Assembly (NCBI GenBank): GCA_002441305.1
Contig: DJVT01000009.1
Location: forward strand, 345,210-409,209
Length of the DNA: 64,000 nt
Origin: Candidatus Omnitrophica bacterium UBA6249
GTDB lineage: Bacteria > Omnitrophota > Gorgyraeia > Gygaellales > Profunditerraquicolaceae
Direction: 5' to 3'
Below are positions 38,114-64,000 of the stretch, one piece after another. A program made the position numbers and the translations under genes. How positions within the stretch are numbered: position 1 is the stretch's first letter; the number at the start of each line of letters is the position of its first letter. The notes under the pieces were generated by a model. It was not told the origin of the DNA. It ran no database searches and saw nothing but the letters and a program-made list of their open reading frames with translations.

Positions 38114-38139
38114 AATTGGCACCCTCTAAGATTAGTGCC

Positions 38140-38365: not shown

Positions 38366-38373
38366 CGCTACCC

Positions 38374-38456
38374 ATTAGGACATTAGGACATTTTTCGTGT
38401 CGTATGATGTCCGGTTTCACTGACATACTGACATAACTCGTGTCAGTGAATGTCAG
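38374..38456. repeat. Short-word arrays upstream of the small ORF (operator/iteron-like)
   Basis: ATTAGGAC occurs twice in tandem (38374-38391). CTGACAT occurs twice (38420, 38428), followed by inverted TGTCAG twice (38441, 38451). Confidence 0.6.
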
Positions 38457-38600
38457 TCAAAACACCCCTCAAAACCATCGAAATACCCCAAAATTGACAC
38501 TTTTTCCGCAAAGAATGCCTGTTTTGAGCCTTCCTGACCACATTTTGACGCTCTCCGGATAACCCCATATGACATGACATCACTTTTTCAAAATTTTAGA

Positions 38601-38712
38601 TCACTGACAAACTGCGCCTCGCCCGACCCTCACCCGACACCGGCTGCCAAGGACCCGTAAACAAAATGCGTGCGGAGGAGGGCGGAAGGTGTCGCCCTCT
38701 GCCAGACGCATT
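38601..38712. repeat. Conserved GC-rich motif copy 1 plus adjacent hairpin
   Basis: TCACTGACA..GCGCCTCGCCCGACCCTC..AAGGACCC (38601-38656), with an invariant 18-mer at 38614-38631. A hairpin AATGCGT...ACGCATT follows at 38665-38712. Confidence 0.8.
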
Positions 38713-38781
38713 TATCTGGCAAAACTTTCGCGATGGAAGAAGTTAACAAGAACATCGATCCGGTTCCTCCGCATTAGATTG

Positions 38782-39465: not shown

Positions 39466-39559
39466 TTTTCGTTCCTCCTGTATTTGTTGATTTGAATTAC
39501 TATTCTTCTGCCTTGGTTTTTACGTTTGCCTACATCTTTCACCTCCCCTTTTTCTACCC

Positions 39560-39772
39560 TCTGAACGTTGTGAACATTGACTACTCTTATTTTTCTAACT
39601 GCCTCTAATGACCCCCTACAAGGGGCTTTCCCTCTTTCTCTTTTCTTTTTTAGAAAAGGAAAGAAACGACATTCACAATATTCATGAATCCCACATCCTC
39701 TTGTAGATTATGAGGATAATCCGTGACCAAAGCTGTGAACGTAGCCCGTCCACAGTCACAATGGTCACACCT
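39560..39772. repeat. Iteron-like word pairs and an AT-rich tract downstream of primase 1 (replication origin candidate)
   Basis: TGAAC occurs at 39562 and 39571, TTCA(C/T) words at 39671 and 39680, and GTCACA at 39755 and 39764. Each pair is 9 bp apart. An A/T-rich imperfect palindrome lies at 39630-39665. Confidence 0.4.
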
Positions 39773-42136: not shown

Positions 42137-42351
42137 GTCCGTATTTGGTTAAGTATTGCCCGGAGTTTACTGTCGTTATATGGCACGCGACAGGTATAAA
42201 GCCACATCTCGACCTCTGAGGCGCGAAACATAACTTCCCCGCTTGGTAGCCTAAAATGCGGGATAAGCCAATTCTTCACCAGATAGTCAATCTGGCTCCG
42301 CCTTAGATTGAGATGAGTCATAAGCCGTTCAACAGTCAATAAGCCTTCCAT
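42115..42351 (-). CDS. AlpA/excisionase-family HTH regulator
   Basis: 78 aa. LLTVERLMTHLNLRRSQIDYLVKNWLIPHFRLPSGEVMFRASEVEMWL matches the HTH_17 pattern. It overlaps the primase start by 22 nt. Confidence 0.6.
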   Translation of the reverse strand: MEGLLTVERLMTHLNLRRSQIDYLVKNWLIPHFRLPSGEVMFRASEVEMWLYTCRVPYNDSKLRAILNQIRTWRCKQQ

Positions 42352-42460
42352 GTGATATCCTCCTCGCGAATTTCTTTTCTACTTGGAGTTTATCACTGGA
42401 AAAATCATGCCTTCCCAGCTTTACCCAAATTTGCTCAAATTTTTACATTGATTGTGCGTA

Positions 42461-42488
42461 AAAAAGAAAAAACGCCCTAAGGCGTTTT
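42461..42488 (-). terminator. Rho-independent terminator after the 203-aa gene
   Basis: The minus strand has the stem AAAACGCC / GGCGTTTT with a 4-nt loop, followed by a T-run. Confidence 0.7.
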
Positions 42489-42522
42489 AGTGGGAATTAC
42501 TGCTATTTTTGTTTTGGAAATA

Positions 42523-43134
42523 CTACTGAGAGGAGTCTTGATCGTCAGCGGTAGGAAGTTCTTCGGCGGCGATCTGCCATTTGCTTCCGATCTTGCGGGC
42601 TAATAACTGATTATTCTCAAGCCAGTTTTGCATGGTCTTACGGCTGATATTAAAAACCTTGGCCCAATGCGTGATTGGATACGGGCTTGACCAGCCGCTA
42701 CGCGGGATTAATTTCGGTCTTATTCTAAACTCAGAAGACATTATCCTGTTTCTTGCACCCATAATACGGTGCATCATCCCAAGTTGCATATCTTTCGTCT
42801 TTTCACACCATTCATTGTAGCCTCCGGGAAGCCACGTTGGAAGCTCAGGGATAACCGGTGTTTCATTCGGCCCGAATAGATATTCTATAATGGGGATAGC
42901 CGCTTGATTGGCTTCCTGATAAAGATTTCCCAAGTCAGGCTTTTTTACTTTATGCTTCTTTAGCGTTTTCTCATACTTGTGGAATACATCATCTTTTGTC
43001 AGCCAATCATAGGAATCGATTGATGAAAGACCGAGCCTTTCAATAGTCAACACCCACTCACTGGAGGCCTTCTCATACGCTGACCACTTTTTCCAGAACT
43101 CCGTAACGCAATCGAGTTTATTCTTTTTATCCAC
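42523..43134 (-). CDS. Conserved 203-aa element protein with C-terminal excisionase-type HTH
   Basis: It aligns along its whole length with 60633-61244 of element 2. The C-terminus reads ITHWAKVFNISRKTMQNWLENNQLLARKIGSKWQI. Confidence 0.7.
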   Translation of the reverse strand: MDKKNKLDCVTEFWKKWSAYEKASSEWVLTIERLGLSSIDSYDWLTKDDVFHKYEKTLKKHKVKKPDLGNLYQEANQAAIPIIEYLFGPNETPVIPELPTWLPGGYNEWCEKTKDMQLGMMHRIMGARNRIMSSEFRIRPKLIPRSGWSSPYPITHWAKVFNISRKTMQNWLENNQLLARKIGSKWQIAAEELPTADDQDSSQ

Positions 43135-52714: not shown

Positions 52715-54175
52715 TTATTCTTTTAATCGTGCCAAAGCACATTGCAAAACAGAAAAATCTTCCGCATTTGCCAGCACCAATAAAACATCGCCGCCCTCGA
52801 TCACGGTTGACCCGGACGGAATAACAAATTTGTCGTTGCGCGAAACAAGCATGATCAGGCATTTCACCGGAACATTCAATTCCTTGATCATCTTGCCAAT
52901 AGCCTCTGAATTATACGGCACGATAACATCCGTCAGTTCCGCGTCAATGCCTTCAACTTTCTCAAATTCTATAGGGTATGCTTTCTTGTCAGGCAAAGGC
53001 ACATCCAACTTTAGCAGTTTTGAAACCAGAGGAATTGACGTGCCCTGAATAAAAACAGAAGCAATGACAATGAAAAACACGATATTAAAAATTGTCTCGG
53101 CCTGAGGAATGCCTGCCGCGAGCGGAAATGTGGCCAAGATGATCGGAACCGAGCCCCTCAATCCTACCCACGAAAGCATGATCTTTTTCGGCACGGCGAA
53201 TTTAAACGGAAGTAAGCAGAGAAAAACGCTCAAAGGCCGGGCAATAAACATGAGGACAATCGTAACCAGCAACCCTGTTCCGATAAGCGGAACCAAGTGA
53301 GAAGGATAAACGAGCAAACCTAAAGTCACGAACATGGCAATTTGGCTGATCCAAGCCAAACCGTCATGAAATTTCATAATGGATTTCTTATTAGGAAATT
53401 CCGTCTGCGCTAGACCGAGCCCAGCAAGATAAACCGCAAGGATCCCGTTTCCCTTTAAAAGAACTGCAATAACGTAAGTAAACAAGATCAATGAAATTGT
53501 TATAATTGGATAAAGGCCTTCATAATCTAATTTAAGCCGCTTGATAAAGAAAACGATGGCCTTCGCCATTAAATAACCGACAAGCGCCCCCATCCCCATA
53601 TCCAGAACGAATCTCGGAATCAGCGAAACGAGCCCTGATCCTTTCACGGTCAAAAGGCTCAAAAACCCCATTGTCAGAAAAATAGCCATCGGATCATTAC
53701 TGCCGGACTCGAATTCGAGCAACGGTTTCAATGGCTTCTTCAAACTTATGCGTCTTGATCTTAGAATAGCGAATACGGCGGCGGCGTCTGTAGATGAAAC
53801 GATAGATCCAAGCAACACACCGTCTAATAGAGAAAATTTGAGGACATAAACAGCAAACAACCCCGTAATAATTGCCGTAACCAATACTCCAAGAGTCGAA
53901 AGCACGATCCCCGGGAGAATAATTGGTCTTGTGTCTTTCCAGTTAGTATCAAGCCCGCCTGAAAAGATAATAAATATAAGTGCCAAAATACCGATCTGCT
54001 TCGCCAGTTGAGCATTATCAAAATAGATCTTGCCGATCCCTTCCGATCCGGCAAGCATCCCAACCGCCAAAAATAACAACAACACGGGAACCGCGAACTT
54101 GTCCGATATCTTGCTCGAAACAACGCTCACGAACATTAAAACCGAAGCCCATAATAAAATAGTTTCAAATGCCAT
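52715..54175 (-). CDS. nhaP2: K+/H+ antiporter NhaP2/CvrA type (CPA1) with C-terminal TrkA-C (RCK_C) domain
   Basis: 486 aa with about 12 TM helices, an N-terminus typical of NhaP2 and a C-terminal RCK_C-like segment (VIPSGSTVIEGGDVLLVLA). Confidence 0.8.
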   Translation of the reverse strand: MAFETILLWASVLMFVSVVSSKISDKFAVPVLLLFLAVGMLAGSEGIGKIYFDNAQLAKQIGILALIFIIFSGGLDTNWKDTRPIILPGIVLSTLGVLVTAIITGLFAVYVLKFSLLDGVLLGSIVSSTDAAAVFAILRSRRISLKKPLKPLLEFESGSNDPMAIFLTMGFLSLLTVKGSGLVSLIPRFVLDMGMGALVGYLMAKAIVFFIKRLKLDYEGLYPIITISLILFTYVIAVLLKGNGILAVYLAGLGLAQTEFPNKKSIMKFHDGLAWISQIAMFVTLGLLVYPSHLVPLIGTGLLVTIVLMFIARPLSVFLCLLPFKFAVPKKIMLSWVGLRGSVPIILATFPLAAGIPQAETIFNIVFFIVIASVFIQGTSIPLVSKLLKLDVPLPDKKAYPIEFEKVEGIDAELTDVIVPYNSEAIGKMIKELNVPVKCLIMLVSRNDKFVIPSGSTVIEGGDVLLVLANAEDFSVLQCALARLKE

Positions 54176-54229
54176 AAGTGAATTCTGTTTTTACCTTAAC
54201 CAATTCAATTTTTTTGCATAACTTCTTAA

Positions 54230-56110
54230 TCAATCTGCACCTATCAACGCCTCCGCCAAATCCGCCATGCTGTGTCTATAAGGTAGACAACGGCCATCCG
54301 AAGGTACGCAAAAGTATACGCTTTCCCTTCGGGGAACCTTCGCCTTCGGCTCGGTTTCCTCGGTGCTTTTCTTCGCCTTTTTTGGCGTCATTTCTCTCTT
54401 TGTTTGACATTTTACTCCTTCTTTCAAACTGTCATCCTGAGGAAGGCCGCAGGCCGACCGAAGGATCTCATCCTTAGCCAGATTCTTCGCCTTCGGCTCA
54501 GAATGACGGACTTTCAGTGCCTCGTCATAGCACATCTTCCACGGCTGATTAATATCAACCTTAACAATTTCCTGATTTTGAATATATATCCCTTTAAATA
54601 TAATCCTCATAAACGTCTTTATAAGGTAATCCATCTGCTGGGTGTTGGGATTACTCCTCAATTTCAATAGAAAATCCTGCGTGGCTTTCACCAGATTAAC
54701 CGCGTTACGTTTTTCAAGGATCTTTAACTGGATCGACTTTATATCCTGTCTGAGCTTCTTCTCCTCATTCCTGAGAAGTTCAGCCTTGTCTTTATAAATA
54801 TCAATATTGATCTTATCCTCTGAGAAAACCTCATAAAGCGCCTTCTGTTTTTCAAGGTTCTTGGCCAACGCCTTTTCCGTATCTTCCAACTGCTCGATAT
54901 AACACTGTTCAGGCTCAGTTGCGCTTAACTTGATCATGTCCCCCAGTTCTTCGATAACATGCAAATTTCTACTTATCGTATCAATAATATCCCAAACCTG
55001 TTTGTTGATCCCATCGGCCGTAACTGATTTATTCTTGCACTTAACATACGATACACCGACAGATGAACAGCAATACCACGGCCTACGTTCCTTCGTCCTG
55101 TGGTTCTTCGTTAAAGTCAACCCTCGGTAATTTCGCCCGCATTCATGGCATTTTAAAACACCGGACAGGTGATAAACATTGTTGCGAAATCTCACGACTT
55201 TATTTGTGCGGTTTCTATCAAGCAGTTTCTGCGCCTTATCAAACACCTCTTGAGTGATGATCGCTTCATGGCAATCCTTCACCTCAATAATCTTAGACGG
55301 ATCATTATTCACATACTTGTATCCCTTACCCTCGCCATTATGCGTTTTCTCTTTTTTCTCATACCGCTTTTTATTCCACACCAGCATGCCCAGATACGTC
55401 TTATTCTTGAGAATCGATGAAATAAATTTGGTATAAAACTTCCCGCCCTGACGTGATTTGATGCCTAAATTATAATAATGCCCGGCGATCTGAGACGTAC
55501 TTTTACCGCTAATATACATATCAAAAATCTCTTTAACGATCTTCGCTTCTTCGTCGTGGACTTCCAGCTTCTTGATCTCTTTATTGTAACGGTAACCATA
55601 AGGAGCATACCGTGCGCCTTGCCAGTGCCCACGCTTAACTCCCACAACCATGCCCGGGAATACGCGCTCAACCAGACGATTGCGTTCAAACTCCGCGCAA
55701 CTGCCCAACATCTGTATTGCCATCTTACCCGCGCTTGATGTGGTATCAAACGGCTCAGTCGCTGATTTGTAACCGATCCCTAACGACTCAAACTCCTCAA
55801 GTAACGCCAAAAGATCCTTTAACTTCCTGCTAAGCCTGTCCTGCTTATAAACCATTACCAAATCAAACTGCTTATTCTTCGCGTCAAACAAAAGCCTCTG
55901 CAAAGCTGGCCTGTCCATATTTCCACCGGAATAACCGTCATCCATATAAACATCTTTACCGGACATCGTGCAAACAACATCCCAGCCAAAGTTCTTGGCA
56001 TACTGCAAAAGGTAATCCCGCTGAACTTCCAGCGAAAACCCCTCCCGCGCCTGATCCTCTGTGCTGACTCTTGTGTATAAAGCTACTTTCATGTTCTCCT
56101 GCTCTGTCAT
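54230..56110 (-). CDS. Large serine recombinase (integrase 2) carrying an in-frame repeat insertion near the C-terminus
   Basis: 626 aa, collinear with integrase 1 (ALYTRVSTEDQAREGFSLEVQR..., zinc ribbon, coiled coil). The probable start is MKVALY at 56092. The tail reads across the att core into the distal arm of element 1. Confidence 0.9.
   Translation of the reverse strand: MTEQENMKVALYTRVSTEDQAREGFSLEVQRDYLLQYAKNFGWDVVCTMSGKDVYMDDGYSGGNMDRPALQRLLFDAKNKQFDLVMVYKQDRLSRKLKDLLALLEEFESLGIGYKSATEPFDTTSSAGKMAIQMLGSCAEFERNRLVERVFPGMVVGVKRGHWQGARYAPYGYRYNKEIKKLEVHDEEAKIVKEIFDMYISGKSTSQIAGHYYNLGIKSRQGGKFYTKFISSILKNKTYLGMLVWNKKRYEKKEKTHNGEGKGYKYVNNDPSKIIEVKDCHEAIITQEVFDKAQKLLDRNRTNKVVRFRNNVYHLSGVLKCHECGRNYRGLTLTKNHRTKERRPWYCCSSVGVSYVKCKNKSVTADGINKQVWDIIDTISRNLHVIEELGDMIKLSATEPEQCYIEQLEDTEKALAKNLEKQKALYEVFSEDKINIDIYKDKAELLRNEEKKLRQDIKSIQLKILEKRNAVNLVKATQDFLLKLRSNPNTQQMDYLIKTFMRIIFKGIYIQNQEIVKVDINQPWKMCYDEALKVRHSEPKAKNLAKDEILRSACGLPQDDSLKEGVKCQTKREMTPKKAKKSTEETEPKAKVPRRESVYFCVPSDGRCLPYRHSMADLAEALIGAD
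54295..54314. repeat. att core copy 2 (CATCCGAAGGTACGCAAAAG), the junction between element 1 and element 2
   Basis: Identical to 36258-36277. It lies in the 3' end of integrase 2. Confidence 0.8.
54431..54507. repeat. Inverted pair of the GTCATYCTGA...GAAGRATC repeat family (miniature element) inside the integrase 2 ORF
   Basis: GTCATCCTGAGGAAGGCCGCAGGCCGACCGAAGGATC (54431-54467) faces GATTCTTCGCCTTCGGCTCAGAATGAC (54481-54507). The pair is translated as RHSEPKAKNLAKDEILRSACGLPQDDS. Confidence 0.8.
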
Positions 56111-56138
56111 TCTGAGGCCCCGCAGGGGCCGAAGAATC
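56106..56138. repeat. Solo copy of the same repeat family between xis2 and int2
   Basis: GTCATTCTGAGGCCCCGCAGGGGCCGAAGAATC. It is absent from the homologous xis1/int1 junction, where the two genes overlap. Confidence 0.8.
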
Positions 56139-56314
56139 TAATCTTTCAAAGTCCCCCGCCATTCTTTAATCTTCTTAATACACTCATCCGTAAACACCGG
56201 CCAATCCCTGTAATCGCGCTTCGGTTTGATCCAGCCTTTACGCACCCAATGGATCATAGTCTGGCGATGCACCCCTAAAATCTTTGCCGTCTCTGTCATC
56301 GTGTATGTCTTCAT
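56138..56314 (-). CDS. Excisionase-type HTH protein, RDF candidate (element 2 copy)
   Basis: MKTYTMTETAKILGVHRQTMIHWVRKGW...; 51 of 58 residues are identical to the element 1 copy. Confidence 0.65.
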   Translation of the reverse strand: MKTYTMTETAKILGVHRQTMIHWVRKGWIKPKRDYRDWPVFTDECIKKIKEWRGTLKD

Positions 56315-56323
56315 AAGCAAGTT

Positions 56324-56360
56324 GTCATCCTGACCCTGAACGAAGTGAAGGGGAAGGATC
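56324..56360. repeat. Repeat family copy on the 3' side of the GIY-YIG gene
   Basis: GTCATCCTGACCCTGAACGAAGTGAAGGGGAAGGATC. It ends at the GIY-YIG stop codon. Confidence 0.8.
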
Positions 56361-56653
56361 TAAATAATACTTTCATATAAATCCTTCCACTCCGGGTTAT
56401 TCTTTTCAATTAAAGCGATCTTCTTTTTCCTAAGCCATCCTTTAATCTGCTTCTCTCGTTCTATAGCTGTCATCATGTCATCCGAAACTTCAAAATGAAC
56501 CAATTTATGCACATTGTATTTTTTGGTAAATCCATCGACCATTTTATTCTTATGCTCATAAACCCGCTTAACCAGATCACTCGTTACACCTGTATAAAGA
56601 ACCTTATTATGCACATTCGTTAAAATGTAAACGTATCCTTGTTTTTCTCTCAT
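56360..56653 (-). CDS. Small GIY-YIG nuclease-domain protein (UPF0213/COG2827 type)
   Basis: 97 aa with GYVYILTNVHNKVLYTGVTSDLVKRVYEHK (GIY...YTG), then ..E...IK.W.R.KK. Confidence 0.85.
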   Translation of the reverse strand: MREKQGYVYILTNVHNKVLYTGVTSDLVKRVYEHKNKMVDGFTKKYNVHKLVHFEVSDDMMTAIEREKQIKGWLRKKKIALIEKNNPEWKDLYESII

Positions 56654-56658
56654 CTTCA

Positions 56659-56693
56659 GATCCTTCGGTCGGCTTCGCCTCCCTCAGGATGAC
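56659..56693. repeat. Repeat family copy on the 5' side of the GIY-YIG gene, inverted relative to 56324-56360
   Basis: GATCCTTCGGTCGGCTTCGCCTCCCTCAGGATGAC, which is the reverse complement of GTCATCCTGAGGGAGGCGAAGCCGACCGAAGGATC. Confidence 0.8.
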
Positions 56694-56733
56694 GTGCCGT
56701 TCATTGAAGGCCAGTATACCTCATTATACAACC

Positions 56734-56928
56734 TTATACAAGAGGATTCTTCTCCGTATCATAGCAAACCAAAAACATTTTCGATAAGACCTCTATCCCA
56801 TCATAAAACGATTTACGAGCCTCCTGTATTTCCGCGATAGACATACCCCGGCTTTTGAGTTTTTCCTCTAAAGCCTCCCATCCCCGCGAATTCTCCGTAA
56901 TTGTTCTATTCTTCTGCTTCTCCATCAT
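56734..56928 (-). CDS. Conserved small element protein (element 2 copy)
   Basis: NSRGWEALEEKLKSRGMSIAEIQEARKSFYDGIEVLSKMF aligns with 38162-38365. I chose the start by homology (MMEKQKN). Confidence 0.55.
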   Translation of the reverse strand: MMEKQKNRTITENSRGWEALEEKLKSRGMSIAEIQEARKSFYDGIEVLSKMFLVCYDTEKNPLV

Positions 56929-57532
56929 GACCTTTACGTACACCGGCAAATTCGTCGATAATATCGGCTATCGCCTCATAAAGAAGCGTTTCAATTTCCC
57001 GAGGTTCTCTCATCGCTAAACGAGGCGCCATTATTGTCGGCAATGCTAAAAATGACCGCTTAACTACCATGATCCTCTCAATTCTTCCCTTCTCAACTTC
57101 ATCTCTTGGCAAGACCTCGCCTAAAGCCTTTTTTAAATCAATCTCTGACAAAAGAGCCTTGTTCTTCCGATATTCAATATCCCATTTTTCCTTCTCGGTA
57201 TCCCGCACATCCCGATAACTCTGCTGAGTCATTCGCCATGCCTTAATTTCCAAAAGATCGTAATGACCTTCGGGCGTCACAGGCATTCCTTCTTTCGCCC
57301 AGTAGTAAACAGTCCTGACAGACACATTCAAAGCCTTGGCGACCTTCTCTTTGGTATCCACAATACCGTTAGGTAAATCAGATTCCGCCTCAAGCCTTTC
57401 AAGTTCTTTAAGCTCTGCTGGTGTTAGCGGCGTACCGCTATGAAGCTTCTCATACAGATATAAGTGCCGCTTTTTCCGTGCTATCTCCACGATATTGGGT
57501 TTCTTGTTTTCCGCTGTTTTATTCTCTTCCAT
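56906..57532 (-). CDS. HTH protein resembling a phage Nu1-type small terminase subunit (tentative)
   Basis: 208 aa. KEKVAKALNVSVRTVYYWAKEGMPV...YDLLEIKAW, followed by a coiled coil, parallels the lambda Nu1 layout (HTH, ..GMPV.., ..W.., helical C-terminus) as I recall it. Confidence 0.4.
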   Translation of the reverse strand: MEENKTAENKKPNIVEIARKKRHLYLYEKLHSGTPLTPAELKELERLEAESDLPNGIVDTKEKVAKALNVSVRTVYYWAKEGMPVTPEGHYDLLEIKAWRMTQQSYRDVRDTEKEKWDIEYRKNKALLSEIDLKKALGEVLPRDEVEKGRIERIMVVKRSFLALPTIMAPRLAMREPREIETLLYEAIADIIDEFAGVRKGHDGEAEE

Positions 57533-57687
57533 ACTGAAATCCTCCGTTTCAAAATTTGCAGGTTATTAACCCCTGATTCAGACCTTAAAATCTTTAAATA
57601 CTCCTTTTTCTATAGGGAAAATACACTTCTCCCTTGCTTCGCCGCTTCAATCTTATTGAACATGCAACCTAAAAATTGAAGTTAATA

Positions 57688-57790
57688 TCACTGACAGACC
57701 GCGCCTCGCCCGACCCTCGGCAAACCCCCGTGGTAAGGACCCATTGTTTAAAAGATGCCGGAGTTACATGTAGTCGCAAGACTACACTCC
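57688..57790. repeat. Conserved GC-rich motif copy 3 plus adjacent hairpin
   Basis: TCACTGACAGACCGCGCCTCGCCCGACCCTCGG..GTAAGGACCC (57688-57742). A hairpin GGAGT..GTAGTC-GCAA-GACTAC-ACTCC follows at 57760-57790. Confidence 0.8.
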
Positions 57791-57899
57791 TGCCCTCAGG
57801 CGACGGAAAACGCGCGTCCACCCAGAATCCCGGTTTCCATTTCTTCTTTTTCTTTTTTCTATACCAGTTGTAGTAATACATTTCTTATTCTCCCTTTCC

Positions 57900-58035
57900 G
57901 TCATGCGCCGAATGACAGAAATGACAACTTTTCCCACACTTATTTATTTTTTCTTTCCTGCTTTCATCCCCTTCCACTCCTCCATCCCTAAACACAATTA
58001 ATGAATATTCCTGTCATTCTTGTCATAGTTGTCAT
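57900..58035. repeat. Inverted iteron clusters flanking an AT-rich spacer at the primase 2 stop (origin candidate)
   Basis: ATGACA occurs at 57912 and 57921. The inverted word TGTCAT occurs at 58012, 58021 and 58030. All recur at a 9-bp period and are separated by about 85 bp of T-rich DNA. Confidence 0.5.
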
Positions 58036-60176
58036 TAATAAGGCCGTCCGGAAATATCCACTTCACCCTCTCTGCGAAGCCGAATGCCTTTCCACGTCCT
58101 CGCGGAACTACACCTTCCTTTATTAACCGAATCATATTGCCGGATTAATTCACGGCCGAAAGTGATCTTGCTAAGCGGCCGATACCCGCTATCCAGACAC
58201 CAGTTGTTATATGCCTGATACAGATCATCCTTGCTGATATCATCATGCGCATCGAGAACACACATCTCCTCGACAAAGATGATCACGTTATTGTTCTCCT
58301 TGCGATACTCATCTTTTACGTTAAGCATTGAGGCGCTTTCCTCAAAATATCCACGATCCCTTAACCTCTTCAGTCCGTTAAGCGCCCACAAGAAAATGCC
58401 ATCAAGCTCACTTGAAGCGATCTTGTATTTAAGTTTATGATCACGTTCTTCTTTATTGAATTGACGGTTAAAAGGCAGGATTAAAAGACGGCGGTAATAC
58501 CCTTCGCTCTTATCACCCACGCGCGGCATATTGTTTGTCGAAAATAGAAGCTTGCAGTAAGGCTTAAACTGAAAAGGCTGTCCATACTTCTCATCAGCCG
58601 AAATCGTATCGCCGGTAACGATGGCCTTGAACATATTGTCATAGACATTCGTCTTAGCATTGGTCTCAAGGCTGATATTGACCAGCTTGTCCCGAAGCCG
58701 GGCGATATAGTGCGAATCATTAAACTTCTCAAGCGCGATCGATGAACAATTTTCTTTGCCGATAAGCTCCTCAAGCACATACAAAACAACACTCTTGCCG
58801 TTCGCTCCCTCGCCAAATAAAAAGAGTGCCTTCTCATAATCATTTTCCCGCGTCAGGCAATACCCGAAAAATTCCTGCAGTAACTCAATACGCTCCGCGT
58901 CATTTTCAAATATCTGATCCAGACTCTTTTTCCATACCGGACAGTCGGCATCATCCTGATACGTCACATTAAGCTGATTAATGGAATACACATCCGCTGA
59001 ATGCGGAACAAGCCGCATATTATCAATGTCATAAAGCCCGTTTTTGACATTCAGAAAAGAAACACCATTAATAATGTCCGGCTTAATAAATGTCTCGGTC
59101 TTTAACGCCACAAGCACATTGCGAAGCCTGCTTGCCGAAAACATCGCCCCGCAAACATCCTTGATCCATTTCTGCACCTCTTCGATAAAAAGCGACCGGT
59201 AACAACCGCTTTGGTATTCATAATATGTATCCGCGAAATTAATCAGCCTGTGCTTCTCAAGAATGGCGTCCGCCACTTCATTGGAGTTTATCTTCTTAGG
59301 TGTATATTCTGATGAATTGCCCGCGCTGTAAACATCACGGCAACCGGCAATAGCTTTAGCGATAGTATCCGCACCGTACGTCCTGCCGTCACTGAAATGC
59401 GCTTCATCCCATTTCGGCCGCATAAGACCCGATGAACGAAACACAAGATCCATAAGCCCGGCATCTTTACCTGTCCAGAACGCCAGCTTATTGCAAAGCG
59501 CCAGATCCGCTTCACTTTGCGAAGGATAATCCGCATGCCAATTCCCTTCATACAGCCGGAAAAACGCGTCCTTATCTTTACTTCTCTTGACCCTGTTCAA
59601 AATCGTCTTAACGCTCTTGCCCTGTTTCTCTGTTCCCTGAACCTCCGCGAAAACCCGATTCAATTCATCCTTACGAGTCTCAATGGAGCTCTTGCCCGCA
59701 ATAATCCGTCCGGTGATCGTAAAAAACCGGTTTTTCGAATACATCTCAACATTACAAGAGCTGAACTTGCGTTCACGCGCGATCTCACCCTTACAGATAA
59801 TATGTGCGCCCTTGCCGCCGGGAGAATATTCCGTATAACTGTTTAATGTGGAAATAATCGTTCGGGCGAGTGATGACATACCGTCGTCAGTCATGCAACT
59901 GTCTATATCAATCCCGACATACGGCGAAGTGATGGCAAACCCTATCGCGTCCAAATTAAGCGCCTCAACTCGCTCCAATAACTCATCAAACGAACACCAT
60001 GTGCTTGAATCATTACACTTGGCAGGCCCGCCGGTTTTGATATTTATAGGAACTTTCTTCGGCTTTTTCCTGGGTTGAGGCAGAAATTTAAATCCAACCC
60101 AGATAGAAAGGTCTTTTAACTCTTGAGGGATATTATCAATATCCCACCTTTTCTCTTTTCTTCTCTCTTCGTTCAT
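58035..60176 (-). CDS. Prim-Pol (AEP) primase fused to a P4/D5-type SF3 helicase
   Basis: The N-terminal half is homologous to primase 1 (VGIDIDSC, SPGGKGAHII, YPSQSEADLALCNKLAFWTGKDAG...). The C-terminal half is of the P4-family type, with FLFGEGANGKS. I place the start at MNEERRKEKRW (60176), 4 nt after the upstream stop. Confidence 0.8.
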   Translation of the reverse strand: MNEERRKEKRWDIDNIPQELKDLSIWVGFKFLPQPRKKPKKVPINIKTGGPAKCNDSSTWCSFDELLERVEALNLDAIGFAITSPYVGIDIDSCMTDDGMSSLARTIISTLNSYTEYSPGGKGAHIICKGEIARERKFSSCNVEMYSKNRFFTITGRIIAGKSSIETRKDELNRVFAEVQGTEKQGKSVKTILNRVKRSKDKDAFFRLYEGNWHADYPSQSEADLALCNKLAFWTGKDAGLMDLVFRSSGLMRPKWDEAHFSDGRTYGADTIAKAIAGCRDVYSAGNSSEYTPKKINSNEVADAILEKHRLINFADTYYEYQSGCYRSLFIEEVQKWIKDVCGAMFSASRLRNVLVALKTETFIKPDIINGVSFLNVKNGLYDIDNMRLVPHSADVYSINQLNVTYQDDADCPVWKKSLDQIFENDAERIELLQEFFGYCLTRENDYEKALFLFGEGANGKSVVLYVLEELIGKENCSSIALEKFNDSHYIARLRDKLVNISLETNAKTNVYDNMFKAIVTGDTISADEKYGQPFQFKPYCKLLFSTNNMPRVGDKSEGYYRRLLILPFNRQFNKEERDHKLKYKIASSELDGIFLWALNGLKRLRDRGYFEESASMLNVKDEYRKENNNVIIFVEEMCVLDAHDDISKDDLYQAYNNWCLDSGYRPLSKITFGRELIRQYDSVNKGRCSSARTWKGIRLRREGEVDISGRPY

Positions 60177-60180
60177 TTCT

Positions 60181-60411
60181 CTACACTCCGTTTTGAAATA
60201 AAAAGTCTTTAACTTTGCGGTAGCACTGAAAAAGTTCTTCTTCTTTAGAATTATTAAAAAACTTATCCGCGAGCTTCTTCGCCTTCTCGCAATCCTCGAA
60301 TAGAACACGCTTTTGACGGCCGTAACCCGAAAGCGCCTTCATCACACAACCCTTCTGAACTAAATACGCGGCCAGATATATGTTTCCCGCTTCAAAATAC
60401 TTCTCTTCCAT
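60181..60411 (-). CDS. Small protein upstream of primase 2 (possibly DUF5659-like)
   Basis: 76 aa reading MEEKYFEAGNIYLAAYLVQKGCVM.... It occupies the slot held by the AlpA-like gene in element 1 but is not homologous to it. Confidence 0.4.
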   Translation of the reverse strand: MEEKYFEAGNIYLAAYLVQKGCVMKALSGYGRQKRVLFEDCEKAKKLADKFFNNSKEEELFQCYRKVKDFLFQNGV

Positions 60412-60544
60412 TGTTCTCTACTCCCCACTATAGGTATTACGTTTTTGGCTTCAGAATTTCGCTTCTATTTTGAGTTTATCAGAAGAAAAAATGAGCCTTC
60501 CCGGTTTTACCCAAGATTGCCCAATTTTTATCAAAGACTAAGCA

Positions 60545-60583
60545 TAAAAAAATGGAGACAGCCCAATGAAGGACCATCTCCAT
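60545..60583 (-). terminator. Rho-independent terminator after the 204-aa gene
   Basis: The minus strand has the stem ATGGAGA / TCTCCAT followed by TTTTTTTA. It is positionally equivalent to 42461-42488. Confidence 0.6.
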
Positions 60584-60632
60584 AAAAGAAATTATTCAGA
60601 TTTTTTTGCTATTTAGGAATAAAAGGAATCAA

Positions 60633-61244
60633 TCAGAAGGAAGAATCTTTGTCATCCGAAGCGGGAAGTTCTTCGCAGGCGATCTGCCATTTAGTGCCGA
60701 CTTGGCGGGCTAGGATCTGGTTATTCTTAAGCCAGCTCTGCATGGTTTTGCGGCTTATATTGAAAACTTCAGCCCAATGAGTTATTGAGTGAGGATTTGA
60801 CCACCCGCTTCGAGGAATCAATTTTGGTCTGGTCTTAAACTCCGAAGATAATATTCTATTCCTTGCCCCCATAATACGGTGCATCATATCAATGTCCATA
60901 TCTCTCGTCTTTTCACACCACTCGTTATAACCGCCGGGAACCCACGATGGGAACTCGGGTATAACCGGCGTCTCATTAGGCCCGAATAAAAACTCCAAAA
61001 TAGGTATAGCCGCCTGATTAGCTTCCTGATGAATCTTTGCTAAATCAGGCTGTTTTACTTTATGCTTCTTGAGTGTTTTCTCAAACTTATTAAACACATC
61101 ATCTTTTGTCAGCCAATCATAGTGATCGGTCGATGAAAGTCCAAGGCGGTCAATAGCCAGCACCCACTCACTGGCGGCTTTTTGGTATGCCATCCACTTC
61201 TTGGCAAATTCCGACACACAATCAAGTTTACTTTTCATTTTCAT
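60633..61244 (-). CDS. Conserved 204-aa element protein with C-terminal excisionase-type HTH (element 2 copy)
   Basis: It aligns end to end with 42523-43134. I chose the start MKMKSKLD (61244) by homology instead of the 240-aa ORF-track start. It overlaps the stop of the giant ORF by 17 nt. Confidence 0.7.
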   Translation of the reverse strand: MKMKSKLDCVSEFAKKWMAYQKAASEWVLAIDRLGLSSTDHYDWLTKDDVFNKFEKTLKKHKVKQPDLAKIHQEANQAAIPILEFLFGPNETPVIPEFPSWVPGGYNEWCEKTRDMDIDMMHRIMGARNRILSSEFKTRPKLIPRSGWSNPHSITHWAEVFNISRKTMQSWLKNNQILARQVGTKWQIACEELPASDDKDSSF

Positions 61245-64000
61245 TATGAAATTCTTCCCATACAGGCTTGAGGAAATGAACCCCGCGCCTTCCATATGTC
61301 GAACAAATAAAATCAGCGTCCTTTGCGTCACCTTTAGTAAATATTCTTCGAACAATTAGCTCTACATCTTCTTGTCTAAACGTAGGCGTCATATTTTCTA
61401 AGATTTTTTTAAAAATACGTCCTATGCGTAGAACACTTTCATCATCATCGTATTGCGCCAAGTATTCAATAAAAAAAGTAGATCTATGCTGTCGATCGAC
61501 ATGAGGCGCGCTCAAAAGCAGCCATTTTTCTTCTTCTTCACCAATTCTATCTAAAATAATTGTCAATTCTGCCATCCTGCCAAGAAAATCCTCATATTCG
61601 TCCTTAAGGTTATCTTTTACAATATCTGGGTTATTAAACGTCCAGCGCCAGAATTCCAAGATTTTATTCTTATGATCTTCCGGAAGTTCTTCTTTTGAAT
61701 CCTTATCTGCATCTTTTTTACGTTTAGTCCGTCCAGTAATAGACCAAAAAAATCCGGCTATTTCCATCCAGCGATCAGGTTTACCTAGTTTTCCAGCATC
61801 CATTAAAACCTTCCAAAACAAACTCTCATCTCCGTCATCATTCTTTTCGCTTAGAGATTCTCCCAAGTTTAAATAGCCTACACAAATATGCTCAACAAGC
61901 CGTTTATCGACACGATCATCAAACACATTACAAGATATGCCTTTTTTATAATTTTCTCTCATGAGATCATATAAATCCTTATAGACCCGCGCACCTGTTA
62001 AATAACCCTCCATGAACATTTGCCATTGAAAATCAAAAACAGTTTGCTTGGAAAAATAATTTATCTTTGCCTTTGCGTAATCAGCATCTAAATAATTAAT
62101 TTGAGGCAAATAAGACCCCATCCAAATATAGCCGTCTATACCTATGGGCAGAAAACGTTCAAATTTATCATTACCCCAGTTTTCCTGCTTTTTCTGGGTA
62201 GCCCTTGCCACCCTCAAGGAAAATGAAAGATAATTCATAACTGTTCTTCCAAGCGTAGTATTTAATACATACGTCAATGCGTCACGTTGCGTATCCGGCT
62301 GAGCCTCACCTTTTAGAAACGGTATTATCAGATCAAAAACTTTCTCAGCTTGATCAAAATATTTAGCATCAAAGGCACGTTTATCATCCTTAGAGCCATC
62401 TGCAATCAAGTCTGATAGGCTCTCGATAATCCATAAATAACGACCTTTACCGCTATCCTCTCCTTGAGCAGAAAGGGCTTCTTTAATAATTAACTCTTTT
62501 CCCCTGCTTAAATAAGTAATACAAAAAGCAAAATATTTCTCCCAAGCTATATCTTTCCCCTCATTCCAAGCGTCTTTGATTCCCCGAATGATTCTGTGTA
62601 AGTAAAAATAATCTATGTCGATACATTGTTGCAAAGCATCCATAAATTTATCAGGTTCATCTTTTACCGTAGACTGCAAAACATCAGCTAATCCTTCTTT
62701 ATCCGGCTCTCCTTCAAATGTCCCATGCCAAAAATCGGCCCCTTTGAATTCATTCAAATACTTAATAATTTCAGCAACGGGCATCTTCAATATTTCTTCT
62801 TTTGAAAGGGGAGATTTATGTGTTACAAAGCCACCCTTAAATGTCGAACGCTCAGGCATATAATCTTTCCCATCCTTCGGGGCGGCCTTATCTTTAGCTT
62901 CTTCATACAAGGAAACAAAGTCTTCATTATCCTTGAGGGGAGAAAGCCATTTAAATTTCCAGTAAAAGGTAAGTTTTTCTCCCTCTTTTAAGTAATATTC
63001 AGGAACGGCATTAATAAAGACCTTTATCCTGCTCTTGATTTCATCATCAAATTCTGAATTATGATGAAGTAGAACATCATATAATTCGACTTCCAGATCA
63101 GACTCCTCTAAAACATTTGGTATCAGTTCGAATAGTTTCTTTAAAAGATGATGACAATCTTCCCAATACATATCAACACATAGAAGAATAAACCTTTCAA
63201 ATATAGGAAAATCGTATTTAGGCTCCAGAAATAATTCCAGAATCTCCTTTGCCTCTGCAATATCATTTTCACATTTAGATAGCAAAATCTTCTTGAAGAT
63301 AGTCGTTAAAACTTCTTCTGCGCTACTGGCGTGATCGCTTACGCCATTAGCCAAAGAACGACACCATATATGCGAATAATCAGAAAATAGACCTTCATAA
63401 ATCCCCTCAATCTTTTTAATGAATTTTGCATCTTTTTCCCAATCTACCCCATCAGGTAGGTTTTCCTTAATTCTGTCAAACATCTCTTTCTTATCAGATG
63501 ACTCAAGCTCAAAGCTTTTTATTATGTCGTTTGGAGCTTCTTTATGAAGCGCCCAGAAATCAGCTTCCCGATTTGTCTTCTTTAATTGATCTTCGGTGTA
63601 TTTGCTTATTACACAAGAATAAAAATTGTCTTTAAATCCTAAGGGACGCGATTCATCTTCTATCCTTCCGACCCAAATTCTATAAACCTCGTTCTCTGAT
63701 ATTTCAATAGTGGCATAATAATTTTTCTGCTTAAATTGTAATGCTAACCTGAGCTGATCTGCTATCCCAAGTAAAACTTTAGAAGAACACTTCTTGCCAA
63801 TTTCATCACCATGTTTATTGAAAGCTTGGTTTATCCAGTAGGCATCCCACTCCATTCTCGCATCTTCTCGCTTGGTTATTCCCCGAACATTGCCCCCCGA
63901 TTTGATTTGCGTTATCGCATCTATAATAATATTTGCGTATTCGTAGTCAGGCCCGTAATCATCATTAAGAAATTTTGGCAATAATTTTTCGCCTATATCG
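61228..64000 (-). CDS. Large orphan protein of more than 917 aa, mostly alpha-helical. The reading frame is still open at the window edge.
   Basis: It is a long uninterrupted ORF in visibly AT-rich DNA. The track start at 63981 is a TTG, and the 19 nt upstream to position 64000 contain no in-frame stop. I found no Walker A or other recognisable catalytic motif in the visible part. Confidence 0.7.
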   Translation of the reverse strand, partial: DIGEKLLPKFLNDDYGPDYEYANIIIDAITQIKSGGNVRGITKREDARMEWDAYWINQAFNKHGDEIGKKCSSKVLLGIADQLRLALQFKQKNYYATIEISENEVYRIWVGRIEDESRPLGFKDNFYSCVISKYTEDQLKKTNREADFWALHKEAPNDIIKSFELESSDKKEMFDRIKENLPDGVDWEKDAKFIKKIEGIYEGLFSDYSHIWCRSLANGVSDHASSAEEVLTTIFKKILLSKCENDIAEAKEILELFLEPKYDFPIFERFILLCVDMYWEDCHHLLKKLFELIPNVLEESDLEVELYDVLLHHNSEFDDEIKSRIKVFINAVPEYYLKEGEKLTFYWKFKWLSPLKDNEDFVSLYEEAKDKAAPKDGKDYMPERSTFKGGFVTHKSPLSKEEILKMPVAEIIKYLNEFKGADFWHGTFEGEPDKEGLADVLQSTVKDEPDKFMDALQQCIDIDYFYLHRIIRGIKDAWNEGKDIAWEKYFAFCITYLSRGKELIIKEALSAQGEDSGKGRYLWIIESLSDLIADGSKDDKRAFDAKYFDQAEKVFDLIIPFLKGEAQPDTQRDALTYVLNTTLGRTVMNYLSFSLRVARATQKKQENWGNDKFERFLPIGIDGYIWMGSYLPQINYLDADYAKAKINYFSKQTVFDFQWQMFMEGYLTGARVYKDLYDLMRENYKKGISCNVFDDRVDKRLVEHICVGYLNLGESLSEKNDDGDESLFWKVLMDAGKLGKPDRWMEIAGFFWSITGRTKRKKDADKDSKEELPEDHKNKILEFWRWTFNNPDIVKDNLKDEYEDFLGRMAELTIILDRIGEEEEKWLLLSAPHVDRQHRSTFFIEYLAQYDDDESVLRIGRIFKKILENMTPTFRQEDVELIVRRIFTKGDAKDADFICSTYGRRGVHFLKPVWEEFHNENEK

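What the first reader, a model, noticed from the sequence alone, without database searches (positions are those of the whole stretch)
56321..56696. A GIY-YIG gene precisely framed by inverted ~35-bp repeats is present in element 2 and absent from the homologous site in element 1
The 97-aa GIY-YIG ORF (56360-56653) is bracketed by GTCATCCTGA...GGAAGGATC (56324-56360) and its inverted relative GATCCTTCGG...CTCAGGATGAC (56659-56693). The flanks outside the cassette align with element 1. For example, CCAGTATACC.(T/C)ATTATACAACC.TATACAAG occurs at 38138-38170 and at about 56711-56743. In element 1 the xis gene and the small ORF are only about 40 bp apart. This presence/absence difference between two paralogous backbones, together with the terminal inverted repeats, marks the cassette as an independently mobile unit: a nuclease gene with TIR-like ends.
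Basis: partly seen in the sequence, partly recalled or inferred. Interest (0 to 1): 0.7.

Follow-up and report, generated by a model that had tools for sequence, protein, structure and literature searches.

The report
Ssn nuclease gene with hairpin repeats
The small nuclease gene framed by inverted repeats is a new example of the Ssn family described in 2025, single-strand DNA cutters that sit between their own hairpin target repeats; here it rides inside an integrated satellite-like element, and related elements show it is an add-on rather than part of the backbone.

Summary
A 97-aa GIY-YIG ORF (56360-56653, minus strand) is bracketed by two inverted hairpin repeats, and the ~390-bp block is missing from the homologous site of element 1.

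This is a known kind of module. The protein is a gapless 51%-identical homologue of the 94-aa Neisseria SsnA, and the three residues whose mutation abolished cleavage in SsnA align. The repeats keep the two SsnA recognition features, GTC 5' of the stem and C 3' of it. Chenal et al. 2025 (PMC11893778) showed that such proteins cut single-stranded DNA just upstream of such hairpins, and they described the repeat-gene-repeat layout.

The window's repeats are a variant: a 5-bp outer stem, a tandem GA/GA internal loop and a variable inner hairpin. They fail the published search string. They flank most relatives sampled and their stems covary.

Three more copies lie in element 2: one between xis and the recombinase gene, and an in-frame doublet in the recombinase tail. 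Among 55 related elements, 52 have the empty site. Other Ssn lineages occupy a second site. So absence is the usual state.

The cassette here is old, shows no target duplication and is shuffled by recombination. Transposition of the unit remains unproven.

The parts
56659..56693 (-). Upstream Ssn-related hairpin repeat (SRM, GA-type). It reads GTCATCCTGAGGGAGGCGAAGCCGACCGAAGGATC on the gene's sense strand. Its 3' arm GAAGGA lies 8 nt before the ATG and may serve as a ribosome-binding site (inference).
   Evidence: Pattern match. Same hairpin architecture when folded as DNA. Y at -1 and T at +1, as in the family consensus.
56360..56653 (-). ssn gene: a 97-aa single-domain GIY-YIG protein of the Ssn family. 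Predicted to be a site-specific single-stranded-DNA endonuclease.
   Evidence: ORF. Pfam PF01541 E=1.6e-17. Gapless 51% identity, E=7e-34, to the 94-aa Neisseria gonorrhoeae SsnA orthologue, with Y9/Y20/E67 aligned to Y6/Y17/E64.
56324..56360 (+). Downstream SRM (GA-type), in inverted orientation. It reads GTCATCCTGACCCTGAACGAAGTGAAGGGGAAGGATC on the + strand and overlaps the stop codon by 1 nt.
56694..56700 (-). About 7 nt (ACGGCAC on the gene strand) just outside the upstream SRM. It has no counterpart in empty alleles and is possibly part of the inserted unit.
   Evidence: Alignments of filled against empty alleles. The boundary is approximate.
56098..56140 (+). Solo SRM insertion between xis and the recombinase gene, 43 nt in all: an 8-nt leader CCTGCTCT, the SRM at 56106-56138, then TA. 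It supplies the xis stop codon and separates the two genes, which overlap in relatives.
   Evidence: Pattern match. Absent from the close relative L169 and from element 1; shared with the mosaic L188.
54431..54507 (.). SRM doublet: 54481-54507 reads forward on the - strand, then a 13-nt spacer, then 54431-54467 reads forward on the + strand. It has the same convergent layout as the cassette but no gene. It is translated in frame within the recombinase C-terminal tail (…RHSEPKAKNLAKDEILRSACGLPQDD…).
   Evidence: Present in L091, L095, L101, L131, L134, L141, L164 and L169. Absent from element 1, L096, L156 and L102.
56138..56316 (-). Excisionase-like HTH gene (xis), immediately downstream of the cassette on the same strand.
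   Evidence: Pfam HTH_17/MerR_1. PHROG excisionase.
54230..56092 (-). Large serine recombinase of element 2.
   Evidence: Pfam Resolvase, Recombinase and Zn_ribbon_recom.
56711..56743 (-). Conserved intergenic motif (CTTGTATAAGGTTGTATAATGAGGTATACTGG on the gene strand), upstream of the cassette. It is shared by nearly all related elements and is a candidate promoter/operator of the xis-rec operon (inference).
   Evidence: Conserved in all alignments. Not flagged by the sigma-70 consensus scan.
38116..38138 (-). The homologous empty site in element 1: the spacer between the conserved motif and the xis start.

Best explanation
The cassette at 56324-56693 is an ssn module. It consists of a gene for a 97-aa stand-alone GIY-YIG nuclease of the Ssn family, flanked on each side by one copy of its cognate hairpin repeat (an Ssn-related motif, SRM) in inverted orientation.

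By homology with the four Ssn enzymes characterised in vitro, the protein should act as follows:
- It binds the hairpin only when the DNA is single-stranded.
- It reads the GTC just 5' of the stem, the stem itself and the C just 3' of it.
- It cuts that strand a few nucleotides upstream of the hairpin.
- It does not act on duplex DNA, on RNA or on the complementary strand.

Because the two flanking hairpins are inverted, the two predicted cut sites lie just outside the two ends of the cassette, on opposite strands.

The module sits in the leader of the xis-recombinase operon of a satellite-like integrative element, in the sense orientation, so it is probably co-transcribed with that operon. 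It is an accessory acquisition of this element lineage, not backbone.

Element 2 has also accumulated a solo repeat and a gene-less repeat doublet. Repeat content differs between close relatives, so the repeats turn over faster than the gene moves.

Shown here: identity, homology, repeat structure and covariation, gene-repeat association, and presence/absence pattern. Inferred: the biochemical activity of this particular protein, its expression, and any role of the nuclease in spreading the repeats or in restricting incoming single-stranded DNA.
For: Protein:
- Pfam GIY-YIG only, 97 aa.
- tblastn hit E=2e-23 to a Neisseria gonorrhoeae chromosome filed in the plasmid collection.
- That locus encodes a 94-aa protein with Y6, Y17 and E64 and carries six NTS copies (at most 1 mismatch) within 400 nt on either side.
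- BLASTP is gapless at 51% identity, E=7e-34, with Y9/Y20/E67 aligned to the three residues whose mutation abolished cleavage (PMC11893778).

Repeats:
- All five window copies have Y-GTCAY, a 5-bp stem, and RTC-T.
- These retain the GTC (critical for cleavage) and the 3' C (critical for binding) of the published NTS.
- All five fold into the same architecture as DNA.
- In 80 loci from many phyla, 183 of 223 distinct matches to a pattern that does not demand complementarity have complementary outer stems, in 9 stem variants. The chance expectation is 1.6%.

Association:
- 69 of 82 homologues have at least one correctly oriented repeat within 150 nt, and 43 of 82 have one on both sides.
- Nuclease clades track repeat types.

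Accessory status:
- 52 of 55 related elements are empty at this site.
- Other Ssn lineages with canonical NTS-type repeats sit at the xis|rec junction.

Repeat turnover: element 2 and L169 differ in solo copies and in inner hairpins.
Against: - The five repeats do not match the published SRM search string or the NTS consensus. Recognition by this protein is therefore inferred from conserved flanks and from association, not demonstrated.
- No biochemical data exist for this protein or for any GA-type repeat.
- Folding energies of three of the five hairpins are no better than shuffled controls under nearest-neighbour DNA parameters, with z from -0.3 to -1.2. Those parameters do not credit sheared G·A pairs.
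- No repeat occurs in the other ~58 kb of the window. A genome-wide role like that of NTS in Neisseria is therefore not evident here.
Confidence: 0.85

Rival explanations
1. The repeat-gene-repeat unit is an autonomous transposon, an IS-like or REP/RAYT-like system. In this reading the Ssn nuclease, with host replication and repair functions, excises or copies hairpin-bounded DNA. The solo repeats and the gene-less doublet are its non-autonomous derivatives.
For: - Ssn cassettes of two lineages occupy two different intergenic sites in one element family.
- The solo repeat at xis|rec is a 43-nt insertion whose 5' edge lies 8 nt upstream of GTCAT. That is about where Ssn enzymes cut.
- Doublet spacers resemble the cassette's first and last bases (…GATGA|GATCC…), as expected of internal-deletion derivatives.
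- Many homologues lie on ~1-kb contigs, typical of repeats that break assemblies.
- The layout was already noted as IS-like by Chenal et al..
Against: - There is no target-site duplication and no clean junction at ~95% flank identity.
- All close relatives of this ssn (88-100% identical) sit at the same site in the same element family.
- The cassette's divergence roughly matches that of its flanks.
- GIY-YIG enzymes hydrolyse DNA and are not known to form the covalent intermediates used for strand transfer (established knowledge).
- The complementary strand of the hairpin is not cut, so the two ends cannot be processed on one strand as in IS200/IS605.
Confidence: 0.25
2. The gene is a classical free-standing homing endonuclease. 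It cuts the empty allele in a co-resident related element, and repair copies the gene in with co-conversion of the flanks.
For: - It sits at a fixed intergenic position between conserved genes of related mobile elements.
- Its distribution on the recombinase tree is patchy.
- Filled alleles share their own flank family.
- In one pair, ssn is clearly more similar than its flanks: third-codon-position identity 0.75 against 0.54-0.58.
- Two related elements coexist in this very window.
Against: - The protein is the bare 97-aa catalytic domain, with no DNA-binding domain of the kind homing GIY-YIG enzymes carry.
- Its characterised relatives do not cut duplex DNA at all, and they recognise the hairpin carried by the filled allele, not the empty site.
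- Mosaic recombination alone explains the pattern.
Confidence: 0.07
3. The cassette is ancestral to the element family and was deleted from element 1.
For: - The cassette is old. Third-position identity between distant filled alleles (0.59-0.63) is as low as that of the flanking genes.
- Filled alleles occur in several separated branches of the recombinase tree.
Against: - 52 of 55 recombinase-anchored relatives are empty, including the most divergent ones (L138, L140, L099) and all of element 1's nearest neighbours.
- Empty alleles share a coherent 19-nt spacer that is not what joining the flanks of a filled allele would give. Many independent precise deletions would be needed.
- The elements are demonstrably mosaic.
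Confidence: 0.1
4. The hairpins are transcription terminators or RNA-level regulatory structures, unrelated to the nuclease.
For: They are GC-rich stem-loops in intergenic positions on either side of a gene.
Against: - No T-tract follows them, and none was called as a terminator.
- There is no Rfam match even at E up to 10.
- One pair lies inside a coding region.
- They occur in both orientations.
- The conserved unpaired GTC and C flanks match the DNA recognition determinants of SsnA, which does not bind RNA.
Confidence: 0.03

Closest known systems
SsnA / NTS of Neisseria meningitidis and the wider Ssn family with SRM repeats (Chenal et al., Nat Commun 2025, PMC11893778)
   Same: - Single-domain GIY-YIG protein of 94-97 aa, 51% identical without gaps, with the catalytic Y, Y and E aligned.
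- Hairpin repeat with GTCAT at the 5' edge and ATC at the 3' edge.
- Repeat-gene-repeat layout with inverted repeats.
- Extra copies clustered nearby.
   Different: - The repeat has a 5-bp outer stem, a tandem GA/GA internal loop and a variable inner hairpin, instead of one continuous 7-bp stem. It fails the published search string.
- The host is an Omnitrophota-type genome.
- The module sits inside an integrative satellite-like element.
- No copy is seen elsewhere in 58 kb, against hundreds genome-wide in Neisseria.
- No link to natural transformation is known here.
REP sequences, REPINs and RAYT (TnpA-REP) transposases
   Same: - A single small nuclease gene flanked by inverted copies of a hairpin repeat.
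- The repeat also occurs as solo copies and as inverted doublets.
- Recognition of the hairpin in single-stranded DNA.
   Different: RAYTs are HUH/Y1 enzymes that form covalent 5'-phosphotyrosine intermediates. Ssn is a GIY-YIG hydrolase with no known strand-transfer chemistry.
[quoted passage not shown]
   Same: - Subterminal hairpins recognised as single-stranded DNA.
- Cleavage at a distance from the hairpin.
- No target-site duplication.
   Different: - In IS200/IS605 both ends are processed on the same strand, whereas here the two hairpins read on opposite strands.
- The enzyme family is different.
- No conserved target tetranucleotide is seen.
Free-standing GIY-YIG homing endonucleases of phages (Seg and Mob type; I-TevI-like)
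   Same: - GIY-YIG catalytic domain.
- Intergenic position between conserved genes of related mobile genomes.
- Patchy distribution.
   Different: Those enzymes carry C-terminal DNA-binding domains, cut duplex DNA of the empty allele and have no flanking hairpins.

Membership tests
Ssn nuclease family (cd10448-type, SsnA-like) | Single-domain GIY-YIG protein of about 94-100 aa with no extra domain | tested here: met
   The protein is 97 aa. The only Pfam hit is PF01541, covering residues 6-78. Nothing was found in NCBIfam above cut-off, PHROGs or PADLOC.
Ssn nuclease family (cd10448-type, SsnA-like) | Sequence homology to Neisseria SsnA (the paper's criterion: E < 1e-10) | tested here: met
   tblastn E=2e-23 to N. 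gonorrhoeae NZ_CP119140.1. The gene there encodes 94 aa and is surrounded by NTS copies. BLASTP gives 51% identity over 93 residues, gapless, E=7e-34. The N. meningitidis protein itself (CAX49033.1) was not available.
Ssn nuclease family (cd10448-type, SsnA-like) | Catalytic residues whose mutation abolished cleavage in SsnA (Y6, Y17, E64) | tested here: met
   Y9, Y20 and E67 align with them (the mutants are described in PMC11893778).
Ssn nuclease family (cd10448-type, SsnA-like) | Assignment to CDD model cd10448 | not testable with these tools
   No CDD library was available.
Ssn nuclease family (cd10448-type, SsnA-like) | Site-specific cleavage of single-stranded DNA only, upstream of the hairpin, with no activity on duplex DNA or RNA | not testable with these tools
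   This is a biochemical property. It has been shown for four homologues and is inferred here.
Ssn-related motif (SRM / NTS) repeats | Hairpin-forming repeat of 20-50 nt flanking ssn genes on both sides in inverted orientation | tested here: met
   Window copies are at 56659-56693 (-) and 56324-56360 (+), with folds. Of 82 homologues, 43 are flanked on both sides and 69 on at least one side.
Ssn-related motif (SRM / NTS) repeats | GTC immediately 5' of the palindrome (critical for cleavage) and C immediately 3' of it (critical for binding) | tested here: met
   All five window copies read GTC-A…T-C. The family profile has Y at -1, T at +1 and C at +2, and nothing conserved further out.
Ssn-related motif (SRM / NTS) repeats | Match to the published degenerate search string HGTCWYN(0-2)YYVSBRHN(0-5)WNVSBRGN(0-2)RNCYNB, or to the NTS consensus | tested here: not met
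   There are no matches in the window, with one mismatch allowed for the NTS consensus and none for the search string. The same scripts do find canonical copies next to the 61-65%-identical homologues in L011, L030, L100 and L107, and in L093 and L142, where canonical copies lie in the recombinase tail with no ssn homologue detected in the locus. The window's repeats are a structural variant with a GA/GA internal loop and a nested hairpin.
Ssn-related motif (SRM / NTS) repeats | Stem maintained by compensatory change (structure rather than sequence conserved) | tested here: met
   183 of 223 distinct pattern matches are complementary, in 9 stem variants, against 1.6% expected by chance. Between element 2 and L169 there is a compensatory C/T change in an otherwise near-identical context.
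Insertion sequence / transposon | Target-site duplication, or a precisely definable junction between filled and empty sites | tested here: not met
   L110 against L174 and L103 against L183, at ~95% flank identity, show the 19-nt spacer replaced by about 12 nt, the cassette and 9 nt. There are no direct repeats.
Insertion sequence / transposon | Near-identical copies at different genomic sites | tested here: not met
   All places found for proteins 88-100% identical are at the same site of the same element family. Only distinct lineages (61-65% identity) occupy another site.
Free-standing homing endonuclease | Nuclease domain joined to a DNA-binding domain that recognises the empty allele | tested here: not met
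   The protein is only the 97-aa catalytic domain.

The most novel reading that the evidence does not exclude
SRM-ssn-SRM modules are a class of mobile DNA in bacteria whose 'transposase' is a bare GIY-YIG single-strand nuclease. The enzyme nicks just outside each hairpin on opposite strands, and replication or repair then copies hairpin-bounded segments (the cassette, solo hairpins, gene-less doublets) to new places. This would make SRMs the GIY-YIG counterpart of REP/REPIN-RAYT systems. The filled and empty alleles in this satellite family, and the 8-nt leader carried by the solo insertion at 56098-56140, would then be the first natural footprints of that process.
Probability: 0.25. Interest if true: 0.75.

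Novelty: new member of a known kind. Interest (0 to 1): 0.35.

Why it matters
The Ssn family was described only in 2025. How its hairpin repeats multiply, and whether the repeat-gene-repeat unit moves, was left as an open hypothesis.

This window and its roughly 80 relatives give a natural series of filled and empty sites in one well-alignable family of elements:
- cassettes of two Ssn lineages at two sites;
- a solo repeat gained between close relatives;
- an in-frame doublet;
- a possible footprint.

They also show that the commonest repeat type around this branch of the family escapes the published search pattern, so the reported gene-repeat association may be an underestimate. The repeat variant also offers further specificities for single-strand-DNA tools.

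None of this changes the classification of the finding itself, which is a new instance of a known system.

Tried and rejected
- Rfam at gathering threshold on the whole window, and at E up to 10 on 54200-57000: no family matches the hairpins.
- PDB sequence search with the protein: no hit.
- NCBIfam: only a sub-threshold hit to the group I intron endonuclease model.
- PHROGs and PADLOC: nothing for the nuclease.
- Viral contig scan: no relative found.
- Literature searches pairing GIY-YIG with Omnitrophica, REP or YhbQ/COG2827, and searches for the literal repeat sequence, returned nothing relevant or only primers. The Ssn paper surfaced in a search combining GIY-YIG, transposase and single-stranded DNA.
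- Supplementary files of that paper are not held, so its list of curated SRMs could not be compared.
- The sigma-70 promoter scan did not flag the conserved motif upstream of the cassette, so calling it a promoter stays an inference.
- The ten places found for the identical protein all belong to the same element and have no indels, so they give no within-population polymorphism.
- I looked for a target-site duplication, a conserved target motif, or conservation more than 1 nt upstream of the repeats, and found none.
- I considered an RNA motif (kink-turn-like or hammerhead-like CUGA…GA). I dropped it because the element occurs in both orientations, lies inside a coding region, and matches DNA recognition determinants of an enzyme that does not bind RNA.

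Full report
**What is in the sequence**

The ORF at 56360-56653 (minus strand) encodes 97 aa. Its only Pfam match is the GIY-YIG catalytic domain, E=1.6e-17, residues 6-78.

The pattern GTCATYCTGA-N(5-35)-GAAGRATC occurs five times in the 64-kb window, against none in 100 shuffles:
- 56659-56693 (-) and 56324-56360 (+), which bracket the ORF;
- 56106-56138 (+), between the excisionase-like gene and the recombinase gene;
- 54481-54507 (-) and 54431-54467 (+), an inverted pair 13 nt apart inside the 3' end of the recombinase ORF.

A structure-based scan found the same five copies plus one probable chance hit. It found none in the other ~58 kb.

The self-comparison of the window confirms two paralogous backbones. 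36349-38115 aligns with 54512-56316 at 72%, and 38139-38313 with 56711-56885 at 75%. Between them, 23 nt in element 1 face 394 nt in element 2.

One qualification applies. The two arms share only the outer GTCATCCTGA and GAAGGATC, and each arm is a hairpin on its own. They are not 35-bp copies of each other.

**What it is**

A literature search found Chenal et al. 2025 (PMC11893778). That paper describes the Ssn family and reports the following:
- Ssn proteins are single-domain GIY-YIG proteins; N. meningitidis SsnA is 94 aa.
- They bind a hairpin repeat only as single-stranded DNA. The Neisseria repeat is NTS, CGTCATTCCCGCGMAVGCGGGAATCYRG; the general term is SRM.
- They cut a few nucleotides upstream of the hairpin, in the variable flank.
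- They have no activity on duplex DNA, on RNA or on the complementary strand.
- The three nucleotides 5' of the palindrome (GTC) matter most for cleavage, and the C just 3' of it matters most for binding.
- Y6A, Y17A and E64A abolish cleavage.
- The genes are typically flanked by their repeats, an 'NTS-ssnA-NTS' layout that the authors call IS-like.

A protein search of the plasmid collection hit a Neisseria gonorrhoeae chromosome filed there, at E=2e-23. That locus encodes a 94-aa protein with Y6, Y17 and E64. It carries six NTS copies (at most 1 mismatch) within 400 nt either side.

The window's protein aligns with it without gaps at 51% identity, E=7e-34. Y9, Y20 and E67 fall on those three residues.

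Homologues 61-65% identical to the window's protein (L011 second copy, L030, L100, L107) are flanked by canonical NTS-type repeats and also align gaplessly. The protein is a member of the Ssn family.

**The repeats are a variant of the known motif**

None of the five copies matches the published degenerate SRM string or the NTS consensus. They keep the 5' (Y)GTCAY and the 3' RTC(T). Between these lie a 5-bp outer stem, a tandem GA/GA internal loop and an inner stem-loop. The sequence and length of the inner stem-loop differ from copy to copy, and it is often closed by a GNA triloop.

In 80 loci from one-genome-per-species contigs, homologues are 58-86% identical to the window's protein. The phyla include Omnitrophota, Chloroflexota, Ignavibacteriota, Cyanobacteriota, Bacillota, Legionellales and CPR. 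In these loci:
- 69 of 82 homologues have a correctly oriented repeat within 150 nt, and 43 of 82 have one on both sides, upstream forward and downstream reverse.
- Of 223 distinct matches to a pattern that does not demand complementarity, 183 have complementary stems, in nine stem variants, against 1.6% expected.
- Outside the motif nothing is conserved, apart from Y at -1, T at +1 and C at +2. This agrees with cleavage in a variable flank.
- On a tree of the nucleases, the NTS-type repeats go with one clade and the GA-type with most of the rest.

**Context**

Element 2 carries a large serine recombinase, an HTH excisionase-like gene, a 208-aa protein resembling small terminase subunits (PHROG 57, E=2e-20) and a D5/NrS-1-type primase. 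Element 1 has the same recombinase, excisionase-like gene and small ORF, a primase of the same type, and no counterpart of the 208-aa gene. They look like phage-satellite-type islands.

The cassette lies between a conserved 30-nt motif and the excisionase-like gene, in the sense orientation. It is therefore probably co-transcribed with the xis-recombinase operon. The 3' arm of the upstream hairpin, GAAGGA, sits 8 nt before the ATG. Both points are inferences; the consensus promoter scan did not flag the motif.

**Insertion or deletion?**

A metagenome scan anchored on the recombinase gave 78 related loci.
- Where both flanks are visible, site A (small ORF | xis) is empty in 52 of 55 loci. Site B (xis | recombinase) is empty in 48 of 57.
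- A GA-type ssn cassette occupies site A in L120, and in every place found for the 88-100%-identical proteins.
- An NTS-type ssn cassette occupies site B in L100, L107 and L011.
- On a recombinase tree, filled alleles appear in several separate branches among empty ones. Element 1's closest relatives are all empty.

So absence is the common and probably ancestral state.

Several results argue against a recent hop:
- Third-codon-position identity of ssn between distant filled alleles (0.59-0.63) equals that of the flanking genes. Only one pair shows an excess: 0.75 against 0.54-0.58.
- Filled and empty pairs with ~95% flank identity (L110/L174, L103/L183) show no target duplication. They differ in the 12 + 9 nt abutting the cassette.
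- L188 is a visible mosaic of two element lineages.

The simplest reading is one old acquisition at site A, followed by allele shuffling through homologous recombination between elements. Elements of this family can co-reside, as they do in this window.

**The repeats turn over faster than the gene**

Element 2 and L169 are ~90-95% identical in nucleotides. They differ as follows:
- The solo repeat between xis and the recombinase gene is a 43-nt insertion in element 2: an 8-nt leader, the hairpin, then TA (window 56098-56140). It supplies the xis stop codon and is absent from L169.
- L169 has an extra decayed copy upstream of the conserved motif.
- The downstream hairpin of the cassette and the second hairpin of the doublet differ by 12-nt inner-hairpin indels. 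The cassette's downstream hairpin also carries a compensatory outer-stem change. The upstream hairpin is identical in both.

The doublet in the recombinase tail is in frame and translated. It is present in nine related loci (L091, L095, L101, L131, L134, L141, L164, L169, and possibly L011, whose 2655-2764 pair was not mapped to the recombinase tail). NTS-type copies replace it in L093 and L142. It is absent from L102, which nevertheless keeps CGTCA at the spot.

Doublet spacers resemble the first and last bases of the cassette (…GATGA|GATCC…). This suggests internal-deletion derivatives, but that is an inference.

**How it most likely works**

By homology, the protein binds its hairpins when DNA is single-stranded and nicks a few nucleotides 5' of GTCAT. 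With inverted flanking hairpins, the two predicted nicks fall just outside the cassette on opposite strands.

What this achieves for a satellite-type element is not known. Three options remain open:
- restricting single-stranded DNA that carries the motif, as SsnA does to transforming DNA in Neisseria;
- stimulating recombination at hairpin sites, which would fit the mosaic alleles;
- driving the spread of the hairpins.

I put 0.85 on the identity and inferred biochemistry, about 0.25 on nuclease-driven transposition of the hairpins or the cassette, and under 0.1 on classical homing.

**Verdict**

The finding is real and well described. It is a new member of a kind published in 2025, not a new type of element. 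Its added value is comparative:
- a repeat variant that escapes the published search pattern;
- a family of elements with filled and empty sites, which could be used to test whether Ssn modules move.

Noticed in passing
L136 1445-1725; L120 2220-2496; L150 2217-2497 and 2131-2193: A second, different small GIY-YIG gene (86 aa, MQYVYVLKSTKDGKWYTGCT…RFLSLTG; Pfam GIY-YIG 2.9e-14; ~37% identical to the window's Ssn). It is bracketed by a simple 12-14-bp terminal inverted repeat, CCCCGTTAGAGA…TCTCTAACGGGG, whose right arm encodes the protein's last residues. It sits at site A in L136 and at site B in L120 and L150. L136 against L091 gives a clean filled/empty pair (GGGGTYATTT^ATTATGAAG). L150 also has a gene-less inverted pair of a related sequence. 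It is not present in the window.
   Followed up: partly
window 54230-61355 (element 2) and about 36250-43134 (element 1): Both elements look like phage-satellite-type islands: a large serine recombinase, an HTH excisionase-like gene, a D5/NrS-1-type primase and, in element 2, a 208-aa protein resembling small terminase subunits (PHROG 57, E=2e-20). Element 1 abuts a MiaB/RimO-type radical-SAM gene (35162-36349), which the recombinase ORF overlaps. Element 2 abuts a Na+/H+ exchanger gene (52715-54175). Most relatives use the radical-SAM site.
   Followed up: partly
L125 680-1300; L137, L141, L145, L151 and L156, about 1830-2510: The xis|recombinase junction is a cargo hot spot in related elements. 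Insertions of 520-660 bp carry ORFs of 171-218 aa with no Pfam match. One is a recurrent ~197-aa protein with N-terminal hydrophobic segments.
   Followed up: partly
L102 about 4085-4105, against window 54431-54520: L102 lacks the hairpin doublet in the recombinase tail but retains …GCCGTCA^TGGGG…, the conserved CGTCA 5' flank of the first hairpin. This could be a footprint of loss or a pre-existing target.
   Followed up: partly
L188 2280-2861, against L183 and window 55780-56375: L188 is a mosaic. Its ssn 3' end is L183-like, its xis and solo hairpin are element-2-like, and its recombinase becomes L183-like again further on. This is direct evidence that these elements exchange segments by homologous recombination.
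   Followed up: yes
window 56324-56360 and 54431-54467, against L169 2294-2318 and 4132-4156: The inner hairpins of the repeats differ by 12-nt indels between elements that are otherwise ~90-95% identical. One copy has a compensatory outer-stem change (GATCC…GGATGAC against GATTC…GAATGAC). The inner part of the repeat is hypervariable.
   Followed up: partly
L011 2104-2397: The second (NTS-type) ssn copy in this Omnitrophota genome has an in-frame stop codon (…LVFFE*TNDV…), so it is probably a pseudogene that still sits between intact repeats.
   Followed up: no
L003 beyond position 5359 (window about 54295); L009 positions 1-108: Two contigs carrying the identical gene depart from the window's sequence near the end of the recombinase ORF and inside the small ORF. 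These could be alternative junctions of the element or assembly artefacts.
   Followed up: no
window 1258-1610 (-) and 2774-2977 (-): Bacterial class A RNase P RNA (180 bits) and two tRNA genes.
   Followed up: no
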